From Escherichia phage ChristineMuster_Bas80: a DNA stretch of 47,021 bases. Below, piece after piece: positions 10,813 to 13,635 of the stretch. Within the stretch, counting starts at the first letter, position 1. Every line of letters begins with the position of its first letter. Under the pieces are notes generated by a model. It ran no database searches, was not told the origin of the DNA, and was given only the letters and a program-made list of their open reading frames with translations. The stretch is taken from the sequence record PQ850597.1, one strand, 5' to 3'. A program made the position numbers and the translations under genes.

Positions 10813-10837
10813 TACTACTCCTTCTCGAAAATTATTG

Positions 10838-10881
10838 TTGACCAATCTACATCATTTAGTCAATACTTATTGACGTAGATT
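10838..10881. promoter_or_regulatory. Divergent promoter/operator region with inverted CAATCTACRTCA motifs
   Basis: TTGACCaatctacatca at 10838-10854 and ttgacgtagattg at 10869-10881 in opposite orientations between divergently transcribed operons. Confidence 0.5.
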
Positions 10882-10909
10882 GTACCACAACGAAAAAGGT
10901 GATGTGGAA

Positions 10910-11107
10910 ATGCGATACAAAGAAATAGCAGCGAGATATCAGAAAGAGGTGCGCGAGGTTATGGAAATCCTTAACGTTCGCGAGGATACCATTAAGTTTG
11001 TGGAAACTGCCATGTGTTCACTGGCGCTTGAAGCGGAGGTTGCTGGTCGTGAAAAAGCTGACGAACTTATATCTGCGCTGGTTTATAGTTCAACCAGTAA
11101 CGATTGA
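10910..11107 (+). CDS. Hypothetical small protein
   Basis: ATG at 10910 (MRYKEIAARY) with AAAGGTG RBS; in frame with track ORF 10880-11107. Confidence 0.4.
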   Translation: MRYKEIAARYQKEVREVMEILNVREDTIKFVETAMCSLALEAEVAGREKADELISALVYSSTSND

Positions 11108-11167
11108 AGATGAAGGTTATCTGTGCGTTGAGCACGTTGTTATCAAGTTCTACGGGAGAAATTACAA

Positions 11168-11362
11168 ATGGCGCATGACGAGCTGTACGAACAATCGTTA
11201 ATCCAGCGACTGAATGAAGTTGAGCGTGCTCGCGAATGGCTGGAGTGCGAATTGCGAGAGGTGCGCAATCGACTGCAACGCAAACGCAGTCAACAGAAAG
11301 ATGTTATCGACTGGTCAGGTGACGCACCTAAATTTAACAACTTAGGGGAATGGTTAAAATGA
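11168..11362 (+). CDS. Hypothetical small protein
   Basis: 64-aa ORF; stop overlaps next start (ATGA). Confidence 0.4.
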   Translation: MAHDELYEQSLIQRLNEVERAREWLECELREVRNRLQRKRSQQKDVIDWSGDAPKFNNLGEWLK

Positions 11363-11580
11363 GAAAGTTCAGCACGTTAGTTGACTTGATTTTCGCTGAC
11401 ATCAGCGAGTCTAACGCCAGAAACAAGAAGTCAAGAAATCAGAGGCAGGATATTACATTTCGCACTCTGCTTAAGCAATCGATGCGTAGCAAAAAGGAGT
11501 GGAGATACCGGCGCGACCGAGTTTTGATAAGACTGTGCAAGTTAAACATGAATAAGATACTTAAGGATATGACAAAATGA
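11359..11580 (+). CDS. Hypothetical basic small protein
   Basis: Arg/Lys-rich 73-aa product; ATGA overlaps on both sides. Confidence 0.4.
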   Translation: MRKFSTLVDLIFADISESNARNKKSRNQRQDITFRTLLKQSMRSKKEWRYRRDRVLIRLCKLNMNKILKDMTK

Positions 11581-11822
11581 GCGCACCACATATGCCGATG
11601 ATGAATGATGAAATGCTGCTTGAGTGTCCTTTTTGCGGCAGCCACGAAGTTAAATTATATAACGATGATGGTATGTATTTCGCCATGTGTGAGTGCGGAT
11701 GCTCAAGTGATGTTCACGTAACGAAGTTGGCTGCGGCCACCCAATGGAACACAAGGGGCGGACACCTCTACACCGCCGACGACTTCAATCAGGCAGCAGA
11801 GGAGCGTGATTATGGACTATAA
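11577..11822 (+). CDS. Lar-family restriction alleviation-like protein
   Basis: CPFCG ... CECGC ... QWNTR pattern recalled for Lar-family proteins. Confidence 0.5.
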   Translation: MSAPHMPMMNDEMLLECPFCGSHEVKLYNDDGMYFAMCECGCSSDVHVTKLAAATQWNTRGGHLYTADDFNQAAEERDYGL

Positions 11823-12300
11823 ATCACAAATCATGCGCGTGATTGTCAATCATCCCGGCGCAACGCGCGCATATATTGAGAAGCATTGCGGAGGAAAACA
11901 TTCAAGCACCACAACGCATCGTCTTCACGAGATGCTTGCTCTTGGCTTCATTCGCCGCGAGAAGTCCGTGATTCGCGGTGGGAAGTGGCAGTATAAATAT
12001 TTCATCTCTGATGATGCAGCTGGCATTGATGATGCGATTAAGTGCTATTTGCTTGATAACTCTGGTGCAGAGGTGAAAGAAATCAGCGCAGCCACTGGCA
12101 TTGATTACCGAATCGTGAAAAGCCGTATCCGCATTATGTTTCATAACGGTGATGTAACGCGAAGATATGACCACCACAAGAAGCTGTGGCGTTATTCTTG
12201 GCATGAGAAGGAAGTTAACGTCAGCAACCTGTTTAATTCACTTCTTCGCAATGTAAGAGGTCGTCATGGGGAAAGCCAAACGCAAGAAGCAAGAGTATGA
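11812..12300 (+). CDS. Hypothetical protein, possible winged-helix DNA-binding
   Basis: ATG at 11812 preceded by AGAGGAG; segment THRLHEMLALGFIRREK resembles a wHTH recognition helix and wing. Confidence 0.35.
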   Translation: MDYKSQIMRVIVNHPGATRAYIEKHCGGKHSSTTTHRLHEMLALGFIRREKSVIRGGKWQYKYFISDDAAGIDDAIKCYLLDNSGAEVKEISAATGIDYRIVKSRIRIMFHNGDVTRRYDHHKKLWRYSWHEKEVNVSNLFNSLLRNVRGRHGESQTQEARV

Positions 12301-12442
12301 GCCATTACCGCCATGCGAAATGTCAGGAATGCCGCAGCAGGAGGATGTGATTCTCACCGAGGCTGAGTGGCGCAAGGTGGCAAGAGTGCAAATCATGTTC
12401 CGCAAACTTGCTGAGGATGTACTAAATGAAATGGGCTATTAA
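12266..12442 (+). CDS. Possible small basic protein (58 aa)
   Basis: ATG with AAGAGG RBS; overlaps both neighbours; below track cutoff. Confidence 0.25.
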   Translation: MGKAKRKKQEYEPLPPCEMSGMPQQEDVILTEAEWRKVARVQIMFRKLAEDVLNEMGY

Positions 12443-12830
12443 GCATAAATCCGGCAGAACTCTGTTTGTAACATCGGATGAGTTTATTGCCAATAACCGT
12501 AGAAAGATGGGCTGGATAGTAGAGGAAGTGAAGATGACGAGTAGAGAGCGGTTTGAAGAAGAAATGAGCGATAAATATGAGTGGTTCAGTGATGCGATCG
12601 CTTGTGCTGATTTTTGCGGTGACGATGATGATGGCTACTATGTTGGCGGTGATTATCTCTATTATGGAAAATCATGTTCAGAGGCTTTGTTCTGGTTATG
12701 GCGAGGATGGCAGGCATCACGCTTAGCTATTGAGATTCAAGCATGCCCATACCCAAACGACCACGGACCACATGTTGATGACTATTATCGCGAGCAAATT
12801 AATAACGCAGGCTTAAAGGTGAAAAAATGA
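12426..12830 (+). CDS. Hypothetical protein (134 aa)
   Basis: ORF with GAGGAT RBS; acidic and aromatic-rich. Confidence 0.45.
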   Translation: MKWAIKHKSGRTLFVTSDEFIANNRRKMGWIVEEVKMTSRERFEEEMSDKYEWFSDAIACADFCGDDDDGYYVGGDYLYYGKSCSEALFWLWRGWQASRLAIEIQACPYPNDHGPHVDDYYREQINNAGLKVKK

Positions 12831-13153
12831 TTATCCAACTAAACGAAATCATGAAAGCAGACATCATTCAGCTTGAAGATTATGACATGCAACTGGCGTT
12901 TGAAATTGAAACCGTTGAACGGCAGCTTCAATATGCAGATAAGAAGAATGATCGTGTCTGGCATGAGAAAGCACTTAAGGCGCGCGACCACATGAAGCGC
13001 ACGCGAGCACTTATTAAAACTCGACTTGATAAATTGTATTTTGGCGAGGAAAGGATGATTCATGGAGCTATTCTGGCGCAAATCCGTAAGGAAATGCCAA
13101 TTGGCAAGTTTATGTCATACGTTCACCGCGCAAAGCAGGAGGCCGGGTTATGA
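12827..13153 (+). CDS. Hypothetical protein (108 aa)
   Basis: ATGA-coupled ORF. Confidence 0.45.
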   Translation: MIIQLNEIMKADIIQLEDYDMQLAFEIETVERQLQYADKKNDRVWHEKALKARDHMKRTRALIKTRLDKLYFGEERMIHGAILAQIRKEMPIGKFMSYVHRAKQEAGL

Positions 13154-13338
13154 GCGAACCAAAATTTCCAGAGCTGCCTGTTGAGGTTCAGGTTGCATTG
13201 ATCAATGCGGCAAGTGCAATGGCGACAAAGAAGATTGAGGCAATAGGCAGTGATTACAACAGGAGCATAGACTGGTTTCAGAGGGAGTATCAAAAAATCT
13301 GCGACGCACTCTACAAAGAAAACAGGGGTAGACCATGA
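13150..13338 (+). CDS. Hypothetical small protein
   Basis: ATGA-coupled ORF. Confidence 0.4.
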   Translation: MSEPKFPELPVEVQVALINAASAMATKKIEAIGSDYNRSIDWFQREYQKICDALYKENRGRP

Positions 13339-13481
13339 TTCCATTGCTTTGGATATTATCAGCCTACGCATTCGCAAGGGTATTTGAGGCTGACACTCTG
13401 TACCAGATGATTTGCTATGGCGCTCTGTTCTGCCTATCTGGTGCTGCACTTGCATTTATGGATGATGTGATTTCAGACTAA
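13335..13481 (+). CDS. Possible small membrane protein (48 aa)
   Basis: ATG overlapping upstream stop; hydrophobic product MIPLLWILSAYAFARVF... Confidence 0.3.
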   Translation: MIPLLWILSAYAFARVFEADTLYQMICYGALFCLSGAALAFMDDVISD

Positions 13482-13635
13482 CTCCGTATATCTTTTGTTC
13501 ATCATGGGCTGCTATCATTTAATCAGGAGGTAGCCCATGAATATAATCCCTATCACTTACTTTCTCACGCTTTACGCACTCACTGATTCGCCATTGTTTG
13601 CACTGGCTACCGCCTCATGGTGCTACATCTCCCTG

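What the first reader, a model, noticed from the sequence alone, without database searches (positions are those of the whole stretch)
10813..13482. Island of about 11 small plus-strand ORFs including a Lar-like restriction-alleviation gene: candidate anti-defence or host-takeover cassette
Between the lysis cassette and the scaffold gene, a divergent promoter region (10838-10881) drives a run of tightly coupled small ORFs of 48-164 aa (10910-13481), many joined by ATGA overlaps. One (11577-11822) has the CPFCG...C.CG...WN.R pattern recalled for Lar-family restriction alleviation proteins. The next has a winged-helix-like segment. The rest have no recognisable features. Blocks of small coupled ORFs near an anti-restriction gene are where phages usually keep anti-defence and host-shutoff functions. 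Its position inside the morphogenesis region, rather than the early region, is atypical.
Basis: partly seen in the sequence, partly recalled or inferred. Interest (0 to 1): 0.55.

Follow-up and report, generated by a model that had tools for sequence, protein, structure and literature searches.

The report
Accessory small-gene operon with Lar-like gene
A run of ten tiny genes in an E. coli sewage phage, one resembling a 'restriction alleviation' protein, is real and conserved among the phage's relatives, but it is already annotated in public records, most of it can be deleted in a close relative, and the phage is still cut by every restriction system tested, so an anti-defence role remains unproven.

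Summary
Ten tightly packed plus-strand ORFs (10910-13481) follow a conserved bidirectional promoter region. ORF4 (11577-11822) is a Lar-family zinc ribbon (Pfam 37.0 bits, cut-off 28.6). ORF5 is a tandem winged-helix protein.

The window is almost certainly the published phage Bas80 (ChristineMuster), a Skatevirus-like siphovirus. Relatives carry the same island at the same place, with the same 'Lar-like' annotation, so the position is normal for this group.

The anti-defence reading is only partly supported.
- Published plating data show Bas80 is restricted by all six RM systems tested, including both type I systems.
- AntiDefenseFinder reported nothing for Bas80.
- In the relative seszw, several island genes, and at population level genes 3-10, can be deleted.

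The island is best read as a dispensable, mosaic, probably early accessory operon.

One feature seems new. The Lar-like protein has near-invariant ends (mean pairwise identity 84% and 69%) around a hypervariable zinc-ribbon core (27%), while neighbouring genes stay 90-97% identical. That suggests a polymorphic binding module with an unknown target.

Interest is low to moderate.

The parts
10834..10890 (.). Bidirectional promoter/operator region between the leftward unit (ATG 10809) and the island (ATG 10910). It holds overlapping sigma-70-like hexamers (+: TTGACC 10838-43 / AATACT 10862-67; -: TTGACT 10863-58 / AACAAT 10839-34). It also holds two inverted copies of the genome-wide 12-mer TGAYGTAGATTG (10843-10854 on -, 10871-10882 on +).
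   Evidence: The core is invariant in 12 related phages.
10910..11107 (+). o1, 65 aa, acidic and helical, function unknown (phrog_37091). A swappable first gene: replaced by an unrelated ORF in Akira, IME207 and Seszw_1.
   Evidence: The positional equivalent (gene 3) is deleted in seszw clone 170L.
11168..11362 (+). o2, 64 aa, coiled-coil-like, function unknown (phrog_15697). Present in all 11 relatives examined.
   Evidence: The homologue (gene 4) is absent from seszw clone 20L.
11359..11580 (+). o3, 73 aa, DUF7301, very basic (pI 11.2, net +14). Candidate nucleic-acid binder. Patchy distribution.
   Evidence: Pfam PF23975, 83.5 bits.
11577..11822 (+). o4, 81 aa, Lar-family Cys4 zinc ribbon, acidic (pI 4.45). 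Conserved N-terminus (residues 1-21) and C-terminus (57-81) around a hypervariable core (22-56).
   Evidence: family; 61 clusters; mean pairwise identity 0.84 / 0.27 / 0.69; identity dip confined to this gene; AF2, pLDDT 86.6; pN/pS 0.17 / 0.64 / 0.17.
11812..12300 (+). o5, 162 aa, basic tandem winged-helix protein (WH1 3-65, WH2 67-130, C-terminal helix 137-152). Annotated 'MarR family' in relatives but not a canonical MarR. The family is lineage-specific.
   Evidence: Deleted in most late seszw clones. Absent from Bas78 and truncated in Akira.
12266..12442 (+). o6, 58 aa, function unknown (phrog_17117).
12426..12830 (+). o7, 134 aa, function unknown (phrog_343). Modular: a conserved N-terminal stretch of about 36 aa and a C-terminal part that is swapped between relatives.
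12827..13153 (+). o8, 108 aa, helical, function unknown (phrog_14549). Conserved in all relatives (64-99% identity).
13150..13338 (+). o9, 62 aa, function unknown (phrog_16865). Present in only some relatives.
13335..13481 (+). o10, 48 aa, hydrophobic, probably a two-pass small membrane protein (phrog_18423).
13502..13540 (+). Conserved 12-bp RNA hairpin at the end of the island. Its 3' arm holds the start codon of o11 and its loop and stem hold the Shine-Dalgarno sequence. No U-tract follows, so it is not a canonical intrinsic terminator.
   Evidence: -20.4 kcal/mol, z -2.3. 98-100% nucleotide identity in relatives. Annotated as a terminator in ASO78B.
13537..13659 (+). o11, 40 aa, hydrophobic small protein between the island and the scaffold-like gene (13676-15088). 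Conserved in all relatives.
9879..10809 (-). Divergently transcribed partner unit: m1 10615-10809 (64 aa), m2 10187-10618 (143 aa, mosaic), m3 9879-10187 (102 aa). All of unknown function.

Best explanation
The region is the rightward arm of a conserved bidirectional promoter in a Skatevirus-like virulent siphovirus (almost certainly phage Bas80). It is a polycistronic, translationally coupled operon of ten or eleven small accessory genes.

Shown:
- The genes are real and conserved in order across the lineage.
- The block is a mosaic of swappable cassettes.
- Several of its genes are individually dispensable for lytic growth in a close relative, and a deletion spanning genes 3-10 was seen in phage populations.
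- One gene encodes a Lar-family zinc ribbon and the next a tandem winged-helix protein.

Inferred:
- Host sigma-70 RNA polymerase transcribes the operon early or in the middle period. Its promoter region carries the same 12-mer that precedes the recombination and replication operons, and the phage encodes no RNA polymerase.
- The products act on host or competitor functions rather than on virion assembly.
- The Lar-like protein works as a binding module. Its invariant N- and C-terminal parts contact a constant partner, and its hypervariable zinc-ribbon hairpin recognises a polymorphic target.

It does not confer strong protection against the RM systems tested so far.
For: Anatomy and family calls.

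Same island, order and neighbours in 12 relatives, including Klebsiella phages.

Mosaicism: o1, o3, o6, o9 and o10 are present or absent between relatives. o7 and m2 are domain-swapped. The o4 core drops to 48-72% nucleotide identity between flanks of about 90-100%.

Dispensability in seszw (PMC9825161):
- A spontaneous deletion of 'genes 3-10' was seen in phage populations.
- Clonal mutants lack gene 7 (the o5 homologue), gene 3, gene 4, or carry a gene 8/9 fusion.

Promoter:
- The core is invariant in 12 phages.
- The 12-mer TGAYGTAGATTG occurs 12 times at one mismatch or fewer against 0.5 expected. It sits at equivalent places in Bas79 (11 against 0.54) and mostly 25-45 nt upstream of start codons.
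- Units it precedes include the PDDEXK exonuclease / AAA_24 / SSB operon and the helicase operons.
- No RNA polymerase gene is annotated in the colinear Bas79 genome.

Binding-module reading of o4:
- 61 clusters at 90% identity.
- Mean pairwise identity is 0.84 / 0.27 / 0.69 for the N-terminus, core and C-terminus.
- The Cys ligands and WNxR are invariant.
- The ends are under purifying selection (pN/pS 0.17) despite saturated synonymous divergence.
- Within one allele class the core is also conserved (window against Akira, core pN 0.06).
- The protein is acidic (pI 4.45), which fits protein binding better than DNA binding.
Against: No transcript data exist for this phage group, so timing is inference.

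The sigma-70 consensus scan alone is not above chance, and the hexamers are imperfect (9 of 12 matches).

No canonical terminator separates o10 from the scaffold and capsid genes on the same strand. Read-through, or co-transcription with head genes, is therefore possible.

The Lar-like gene is retained in every clonal seszw mutant listed. It could matter more for growth than 'accessory' implies.

No partner or target of any product is known.

The hypervariable core could reflect relaxed constraint plus recombination near homing-endonuclease insertions (HNH genes sit next to it in Bas78 and others) rather than selection for new specificities.
Confidence: 0.6

Rival explanations
1. The island is an anti-defence cassette whose Lar-like protein alleviates type I restriction (and enhances modification), as Rac Lar does. 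Neighbouring small ORFs would counter other defence systems.
For: - o4 belongs to the Lar Pfam family and to PHROG 599 'Lar-like restriction alleviation protein'.
- The genes are small, coupled, dispensable and mosaic, next to a probable early promoter.
- The hypervariable core fits an arms race.
- Bas77-80 have only one EcoKI site, and their EOP on EcoKI is a mild 0.02-0.11.
Against: - Bas80 and its sisters are restricted by both type I systems: EcoCFT_I 3.5e-4 to 8.7e-4 with 2-3 sites, and Bas81 1.1e-3 on EcoKI with 2 sites. The authors describe them as markedly RM-sensitive.
- o4 fails the RalR equivalog model (18.9 against 113) and is just under the TIGR03655 cut-off.
- AntiDefenseFinder lists nothing for Bas77-80.
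- No other ORF hits any anti-defence or defence family.
- Lar's own mechanism is unknown, and its Rac orthologue has been reinterpreted as a DNase toxin (PMC4041452).
Confidence: 0.25
2. A regulatory module. The tandem winged-helix protein o5 (perhaps with basic o3 and zinc-ribbon o4) is a phage transcription factor. It binds the recurrent 12-mer and times the switch between early and late units.
For: - o5 is a basic (pI 9.75) two-domain winged-helix protein.
- The 12-mer sits in or next to about a dozen promoter-like regions, and as an inverted pair in the island's own promoter.
- The o4-o5 pair is kept together in nearly all of about 200 related phage records.
Against: - o5 is deleted in most late seszw clones without loss of viability.
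- o5 is missing from Bas78 and truncated in Akira, yet their intergenic region still carries the motif.
- The phage also encodes a ParB/KorB-like HTH protein that is an equally good candidate binder.
- The 12-mer may simply be an extended -10 element, since TTGAC lies 17 nt upstream of TAGATT at several sites.
Confidence: 0.2
3. Head-associated or late genes. The small ORFs are co-transcribed with the scaffold, decoration and capsid genes and serve assembly or lysis timing. The two small membrane proteins o10 and o11 would act as holin-like or exclusion factors.
For: - The ORFs are on the same strand as, and directly upstream of, the scaffold-like gene.
- No canonical intrinsic terminator lies between them.
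- o10 and o11 are hydrophobic.
Against: - Several island genes are deletable, with virions of normal size in seszw_300L.
- Gene content is highly variable between otherwise near-identical phages.
- No structural-protein family matches any ORF.
- The island has its own conserved promoter region.
Confidence: 0.1
4. o4 is a stand-alone primase/helicase zinc-binding domain, as some GenBank records annotate it. In that case it would be part of replication, not host interaction.
For: Annotations in Sa179lw, LPSTLL and ZCKp20p read 'zinc-binding domain of primase-helicase'. The fold is a Cys4 zinc ribbon.
Against: - o4 gives no hit to PF08273 at E <= 0.1.
- The phage primase (40619-41605) has its own Zn_Ribbon_Prim domain at 46.6 bits.
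- A hypervariable core is not expected for a core replication part.
- o4 lies far from the replication genes.
Confidence: 0.03

Closest known systems
Lar / RalR of the E. coli Rac prophage (Pfam PF14354, TIGR03655; King & Murray 1995; Guo et al. 2014, PMC4041452)
   Same: A small Cys4 zinc ribbon with the CPFCG ... CxxC ... WNxR signature. Scores above the Pfam gathering cut-off. Phage-borne.
   Different: - Not an orthologue: the RalR model scores 18.9 bits against a cut-off of 113.
- Longer (81 aa against 64), with a conserved 13-residue N-terminal leader and a 20-residue C-terminal helix.
- Acidic, whereas RalR is basic as I recall its sequence (from memory, not tested).
- Sits in a virulent phage, not a prophage.
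- No type I TA-style antisense RNA was looked for.
- The carrier phage is still restricted by EcoKI and EcoCFT_I.
Ral of phage lambda (a functional analogue of Lar)
   Same: A small early phage protein said to alleviate type IA restriction and enhance modification. This is the function the annotation implies for o4.
   Different: Unrelated in sequence (established knowledge). No functional evidence exists for o4.
Accessory early-gene clusters of virulent phages (T7 class I genes 0.3-0.7, T5 pre-early genes, T4 small early ORFs) and lambdoid nin/moron regions
   Same: Runs of small, overlapping, mostly dispensable genes behind host-type promoters. They are mosaic between relatives and enriched for host-takeover and anti-defence functions.
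   Different: Here the cluster is interleaved between the lysis and head modules, as are several other such clusters in this lineage. None of its members has a demonstrated function.
MarR-family regulators (the annotation given to o5 homologues)
   Same: Contains winged helix-turn-helix domains. Weak MarR_2 similarity (18.5 bits).
   Different: - Below the Pfam cut-offs.
- Two tandem WH domains in one chain, instead of one WH flanked by dimerisation helices.
- The closest folds are generic tandem-WH proteins such as TFIIIC, RPC34/62, SelB, YceH and ScpB, at E around 3e-4.

Membership tests
Lar restriction-alleviation family (Pfam PF14354) | Score at or above the Pfam gathering cut-off | tested here: met
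   37.0 bits against 28.6, residues 14-60 matched to profile positions 3-57 of 58. 56 of 61 homologue clusters also carry PF14354.
Lar restriction-alleviation family (NCBIfam TIGR03655 anti_R_Lar) | Score at or above the curated cut-off | tested here: not met
   38.8 bits against 39.6. A marginal miss.
Lar restriction-alleviation family | Four Cys zinc ligands plus the WNxR motif | tested here: met
   C17, C20, C38, C40, W57, N58 and R60 are invariant in 38 aligned homologues. The AF2 model is a zinc-ribbon hairpin followed by a helix. The top named BFVD matches are 'Restriction alleviation protein', but only at E 0.05-0.06.
RalR (Rac Lar orthologue, type I TA DNase toxin; NF007260) | Equivalog-level sequence match | tested here: not met
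   18.9 bits against a cut-off of 113.
Lar restriction-alleviation family | Alleviates type I (EcoKI-family) restriction and enhances modification | not testable with these tools
   There is only indirect published evidence. Bas80 has EOP 0.11 on EcoKI (1 site) and 7.2e-4 on EcoCFT_I (3 sites) (PMC11990801). No isogenic knockout exists.
MarR family (for o5) | Pfam MarR / MarR_2 above cut-off; a single wHTH with flanking dimerisation helices | tested here: not met
   MarR_2 scores 18.5 against 27 and MarR 14.9 against 24.6. The AF2 model shows two tandem WH domains.
Winged-helix DNA-binding fold (for o5) | H-H-H-beta-hairpin topology | tested here: met
   Two copies, at residues 3-65 and 67-130, pLDDT 80. 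Foldseek hits to WH proteins reach E 2.8e-4. PF13412 HTH_24 is precomputed on two homologues.
Lambda Ren (anti-Rex) for the o5 C-terminal half | Detectable similarity to lambda Ren itself | tested here: not met
   PHROG 142 'Ren-like' matches at E 1.4e-7. BLASTP against lambda Ren finds nothing, and hhalign gives probability 2%.
Primase-helicase zinc-binding domain (PF08273) for o4 | Pfam match | tested here: not met
   No hit at E <= 0.1. The phage primase carries its own copy.
Known anti-defence protein families | Match to a curated anti-defence model | not tested
   No anti-defence library was available here. The published AntiDefenseFinder table has no entry for Bas77-80. PADLOC (defence systems) gave no hit for nine island ORFs (o10 not scanned) or for m2.
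Early-gene operon | Host-type promoter, and transcription before replication | tested here: inconclusive
   The promoter-like core is conserved, and the shared 12-mer also precedes DNA-metabolism operons. The hexamers match only 9 of 12 positions, and the scan is not above chance. Timing is not testable here.

The most novel reading that the evidence does not exclude
The Lar-like zinc ribbon is a polymorphic specificity module. Each of its many allele classes keeps the same N- and C-terminal 'handle' but presents a different zinc-ribbon hairpin. That hairpin either neutralises a different variant of a polymorphic host immunity or restriction component, or escapes recognition by one. Type I RM subunits are the obvious candidates. 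This would make the gene an allelic host-range determinant, analogous to receptor-binding-protein swapping but acting inside the cell. The tested laboratory systems (EcoKI, EcoCFT_I) would simply not be the cognate targets of the Bas80 allele.
Probability: 0.2. Interest if true: 0.6.

Novelty: new member of a known kind. Interest (0 to 1): 0.3.

Why it matters
As stated, the finding adds little.
- The phage is published, and its relatives' records already label the gene 'Lar-like restriction alleviation protein'.
- The island is a typical dispensable accessory operon.

The work matters in two ways.

First, it is a caution. The 'restriction alleviation' label on about 200 phage genomes rests on distant family membership, while the carrier phages are demonstrably RM-sensitive. 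The label should not be used to predict RM evasion, for example when choosing therapeutic phages.

Second, the gene has conserved ends, a hypervariable core, many ancient allele classes, and neighbours that are about 95% identical. That gives a compact and experimentally tractable system: BASEL phages Bas77-81 carry different alleles in near-isogenic backgrounds. It could be used to ask what Lar-family proteins actually bind, a question open since 1995.

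Tried and rejected
- Lambda Ren link for o5. The PHROG label 'Ren-like' did not survive direct comparison.
- o4 as a trans-acting primase zinc-binding domain. Rejected.
- o5 as a canonical MarR. Rejected.
- Sequence search of PDB for o4 and o5. Only chance-level zinc-ribbon and wHTH hits.
- Foldseek. o4 against PDB and BFVD gave nothing significant. o5 against PDB gave only generic tandem-WH matches. 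The afdb50 library was unavailable.
- PADLOC on nine island ORFs and m2. No hits.
- NCBIfam. Only the Lar-related matches for o4, plus sub-threshold hits far below cut-off for o4, o5 and o8.
- Pfam and PHROGs on the leftward unit m1-m3. Unknown families only.
- Formal test for positive selection on the o4 core. Not possible, because synonymous sites are saturated (pS 0.8). Only the contrast in pN could be reported.
- Search for o4-type genes in 185,579 bacterial genomes. One locus was found, which is itself a Skatevirus-like phage scaffold in a Pantoea assembly. There is therefore no prophage or chromosomal context to learn from.
- Literature search on the function of the Lar Pfam family. Nothing beyond King & Murray 1995 and the RalR toxin paper.
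- Canonical intrinsic terminator at the end of the island. None found, only a hairpin without a U-tract.
- Rfam. Only the tRNA-Met.
- The supplementary gene-by-gene essentiality table of the seszw study was not available. Dispensability was reconstructed from deposited mutant genomes instead.
- The single search of protein representatives was not used, because an unannotated hit list would not have changed the verdict.

Full report
WHAT THE WINDOW IS

The 47,021-base window matches the published Escherichia phage ChristineMuster (Bas80, PQ850597) on every tabulated feature. S2 Table of Humolli et al. 2025 (PMC11990801) lists 47,021 bp, GC 0.465, one tRNA, and RM-site counts of EcoKI 1, EcoRI 18, EcoRV 24 and EcoP1 48. 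The window has length 47,021, GC 0.4648, one tRNA-Met, one EcoKI site (at 8073), 9+9 GAATTC, 12+12 GATATC and 26+22 AGACC. The record itself was not in the searchable collection. The best DNA hits were its sister phages Bas79 and Bas77, at about 92% identity. The authors place Bas77-81 in 'Skatevirus and relatives', O-antigen-dependent small siphoviruses.

CHECK OF THE OBSERVATION

Ten plus-strand ORFs fill 10910-13481, and an eleventh lies at 13537-13659. The only gap is 60 nt, between o1 and o2. The other junctions are ATGA overlaps or overlaps of 11-35 nt. All ten match PHROG families, with E from 2.8e-14 (o4) to 6e-70, and the same genes occur in the same order in relatives. They are therefore genes, not chance ORFs. 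GC content (0.445-0.466) matches the genome.

o4 (11577-11822) carries CPFCG...CxC...WNTR. It scores 37.0 bits on Pfam Lar_restr_allev (cut-off 28.6). It scores 38.8 on TIGR03655 (cut-off 39.6), and only 18.9 on the RalR equivalog (cut-off 113). o5 is a tandem winged-helix protein by AlphaFold2 (pLDDT 80.2).

The intergenic region lies inside a 26-nt imperfect inverted repeat. Its core, TTGACnAATCTACrTCAnTTAGTCAATACT, is invariant in 12 phages, including Klebsiella relatives whose flanking proteins are about 50% identical.

SURROUNDINGS AND RELATIVES

The order is: lysis genes, a leftward unit of small genes, the bidirectional promoter, the island, then scaffold-like, decoration and capsid genes. 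This order is kept in Bas79, ASO78B, Akira, Vi II-E1, Sa179lw, swi2, IME207, Bas78, Seszw_1, three Klebsiella phages, and a phage scaffold in a Pantoea assembly. The colinear Bas79 genome is a patchwork of structural modules interleaved with small-gene modules on either strand. The island's position is therefore the norm for the lineage, not an oddity.

A tblastn search with o4 finds 201 phage records, all from this lineage, usually with the 'MarR' gene next to it.

A presence and identity matrix gives three groups:
- Retained everywhere: m1, o2, o4, o8, o11.
- Usually present: o5. It is absent from Bas78, where an HNH endonuclease sits, and truncated in Akira.
- Variably present or domain-swapped: o1, o3, o6, o7, o9, o10.

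A 50-nt identity profile shows cassette boundaries and a sharp dip to 48-72% confined to the middle of o4.

FUNCTIONAL EVIDENCE FROM THE LITERATURE

(a) Dispensability. Yuan et al. 2022 (PMC9825161) reduced the genome of the Skatevirus seszw by iterative CRISPR deletion. In seszw the island is genes 3-12, Lar is gene 6 and the WH protein is gene 7.
- They report a spontaneous large deletion of 'genes 3-10' in the populations.
- Deposited clonal genomes show loss of gene 7 in most late clones, of gene 3 and of gene 4, and a gene 8/9 fusion.
- The Lar-like gene is present in every clonal mutant listed.

(b) Defence phenotypes. Bas80 plates as follows:

| System | EOP |
|---|---|
| EcoKI | 0.11 +/- 0.08 |
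| EcoCFT_I | 7.2e-4 |
| EcoRI | 3.0e-6 |
| EcoRV | 2.1e-6 |
| EcoCFT_II | 2.8e-6 |
| EcoP1 | 1.6e-5 |

Sister phages behave alike. Bas81, with two EcoKI sites, drops to 1.1e-3. The authors call these phages 'markedly sensitive to RM systems'. Their AntiDefenseFinder sheet has no entry for Bas77-80. A strong anti-restriction activity is thus not visible. A partial effect cannot be excluded without a knockout.

THE LAR-LIKE PROTEIN

Sixty-one clusters at 90% identity were recovered, nearly all from contigs of 46-48 kb. In an alignment of 38 sequences, residues 1-21 (MSAPHMPMMNDEGLLECPFCG) and 57-81 (WNTRNGHLYTADDFNQAAEERDYGL) are nearly invariant. Residues 22-56 vary almost freely and carry indels, apart from two Cys. 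Mean pairwise identity is 0.84, 0.27 and 0.69 for the three segments.

Nei-Gojobori counts on nine Skatevirus-type genes give pN/pS of 0.17, 0.64 and 0.17, with synonymous sites saturated (pS 0.5-0.8). The alleles are therefore old. The ends are held by purifying selection, and a formal test for positive selection is not possible. Within one allele class (window against Akira) the core is conserved too (pN 0.06).

The model (pLDDT 86.6) is a zinc-ribbon hairpin (25-38), a short helix (50-57) and a C-terminal helix (67-79). It has no significant structural neighbour in PDB or BFVD. The best named BFVD hits are 'restriction alleviation protein', at E about 0.05.

The protein is acidic (pI 4.45). 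This argues against DNA binding or DNase action of the RalR type, and for protein binding. It is not a stray primase zinc finger, because the primase has its own.

My reading, which is inference: a constant handle plus a variable recognition hairpin.

THE OTHER ORFS

- o5 is basic. Its two WH domains resemble generic tandem-WH proteins (E about 3e-4) more than MarR. Its family is confined to this phage lineage. The PHROG label 'Ren-like' fails a direct comparison with lambda Ren.
- o3 is DUF7301 and very basic.
- o10 and o11 are small hydrophobic proteins.
- o1, o2, o6, o7, o8 and o9 have no informative match in Pfam, NCBIfam, PHROGs or PADLOC.

PROMOTER AND TIMING

The 12-mer TGAYGTAGATTG occurs 12 times at one mismatch or fewer, against 0.50 +/- 0.70 expected. 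It occurs 11 times at corresponding places in Bas79. Most copies lie 25-45 nt upstream of a start codon with a Shine-Dalgarno sequence. Several have TTGAC 17 nt upstream of the TAGATT part.

The units it heads include the island, its leftward partner, the methylase/ParB-like unit, the PDDEXK exonuclease/AAA_24/SSB operon and the helicase operons. Sharing this element with DNA-metabolism operons, together with the absence of a phage RNA polymerase, makes early or middle transcription by host polymerase the most likely timing. This is inference, and the plain sigma-70 scan is not above chance.

At the 3' end a conserved 12-bp hairpin (13502-13540) encloses the ribosome-binding site and start codon of o11, but it lacks a U-tract. 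Read-through into the head genes cannot be excluded.

VERDICT

The anatomy is confirmed. The anti-defence label is unproven, and the available phenotypes argue against strong anti-restriction. The position is typical for the lineage. The gene and its label are already in public annotation.

The one feature worth follow-up is the pattern of conserved ends around a hypervariable core in the Lar-like protein. It can be tested directly with the near-isogenic BASEL phages Bas77-81.

Interest is 0.3. Novelty: new member of a known kind.

Noticed in passing
window 3077-3183, 7863-7900, 10843-10882, 19613-19624, 22622-22633, 24026-24083, 28897-28908, 32930-32941, 37427-37448, 40621-40632, 44707-44718: The 12-mer TGAYGTAGATTG is strongly over-represented: 12 hits at one mismatch or fewer against 0.5 expected. 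Ten of the 12 are on the minus strand, and the positions are conserved in Bas79. Most copies head transcription units, but two (28897, 32930) lie in or next to tail genes. It could be an extended -10 element of a phage-wide promoter class. It could instead be the operator of a global regulator, such as the ParB/KorB-like protein, by analogy with the 12 KorB operators of plasmid RK2 (analogy from memory).
   Followed up: partly
whole window: The window matches published phage Bas80 (ChristineMuster, PQ850597) in length, GC, tRNA count and four RM-site counts. That record is absent from the searched phage collection, so identity was inferred from these numbers and not from an alignment.
   Followed up: partly
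window 13502-13540: A conserved 12-bp hairpin (-20.4 kcal/mol) sequesters the Shine-Dalgarno sequence and AUG of the 40-aa hydrophobic ORF o11. It is annotated as a terminator in ASO78B, but no U-tract follows. It may control o11 translation or mRNA stability.
   Followed up: partly
window 17608-18408 (-) and 18405-19214 (-): The phage encodes a C5-cytosine DNA methyltransferase (PF00145, 78 bits) next to a ParB/KorB-like HTH protein. The methylase is a more concrete RM-related function than the Lar-like gene, yet the phage is still RM-sensitive in the published assays.
   Followed up: no
window 10187-10618 (-), m2: The second gene of the leftward unit is a two-part mosaic. The N-terminal half (phrog_17775) and the C-terminal half (phrog_2452 and others) recombine independently among relatives. 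Coverage is 45-100% and identity 45-95%.
   Followed up: partly
L011 3727-4242 (Bas78); also ZCEC08, VSt472, PJN025: HNH homing-endonuclease genes are inserted inside or right next to the island in several relatives. In Bas78 one sits directly after the Lar-like gene, replacing o5, and the C-terminal tail of that Lar-like protein also differs. Endonuclease-driven gene conversion may contribute to the mosaicism.
   Followed up: no
published data for Bas77-81: Sensitivity to the Old defence system differs among near-identical sister phages. EOP is 0.026 for Bas79, 0.13 for Bas78 and 0.22 for Bas77, against 1.36 for Bas80 and 0.82 for Bas81. The determinant is unknown. The variable island genes are among the few differences, but no correlation could be tested with five phages.
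   Followed up: no
window 9384-9725 (+): A DUF1353 gene (86.6 bits) follows the spanin gene. PHROGs labels it 'tail assembly chaperone'. It is present only in a subset of relatives (swi2 and IME207, not Bas79, Bas78, Akira or Vi II-E1).
   Followed up: no
L019 (Pantoea eucrina NZ_JAOBTT010000003.1, 20 kb scaffold): A bacterial genome assembly contains a Skatevirus-like phage scaffold with the same island. Neighbouring genes are 92-98% identical and the Lar-like gene 57%. This is probably phage carry-over or a pseudolysogen rather than a prophage.
   Followed up: partly
window 8073: The single EcoKI site of the genome lies on the minus strand at about 8073, in the lysis-gene region. Scarcity of sites, rather than any anti-restriction protein, may explain the mild EcoKI restriction (EOP 0.11).
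   Followed up: no
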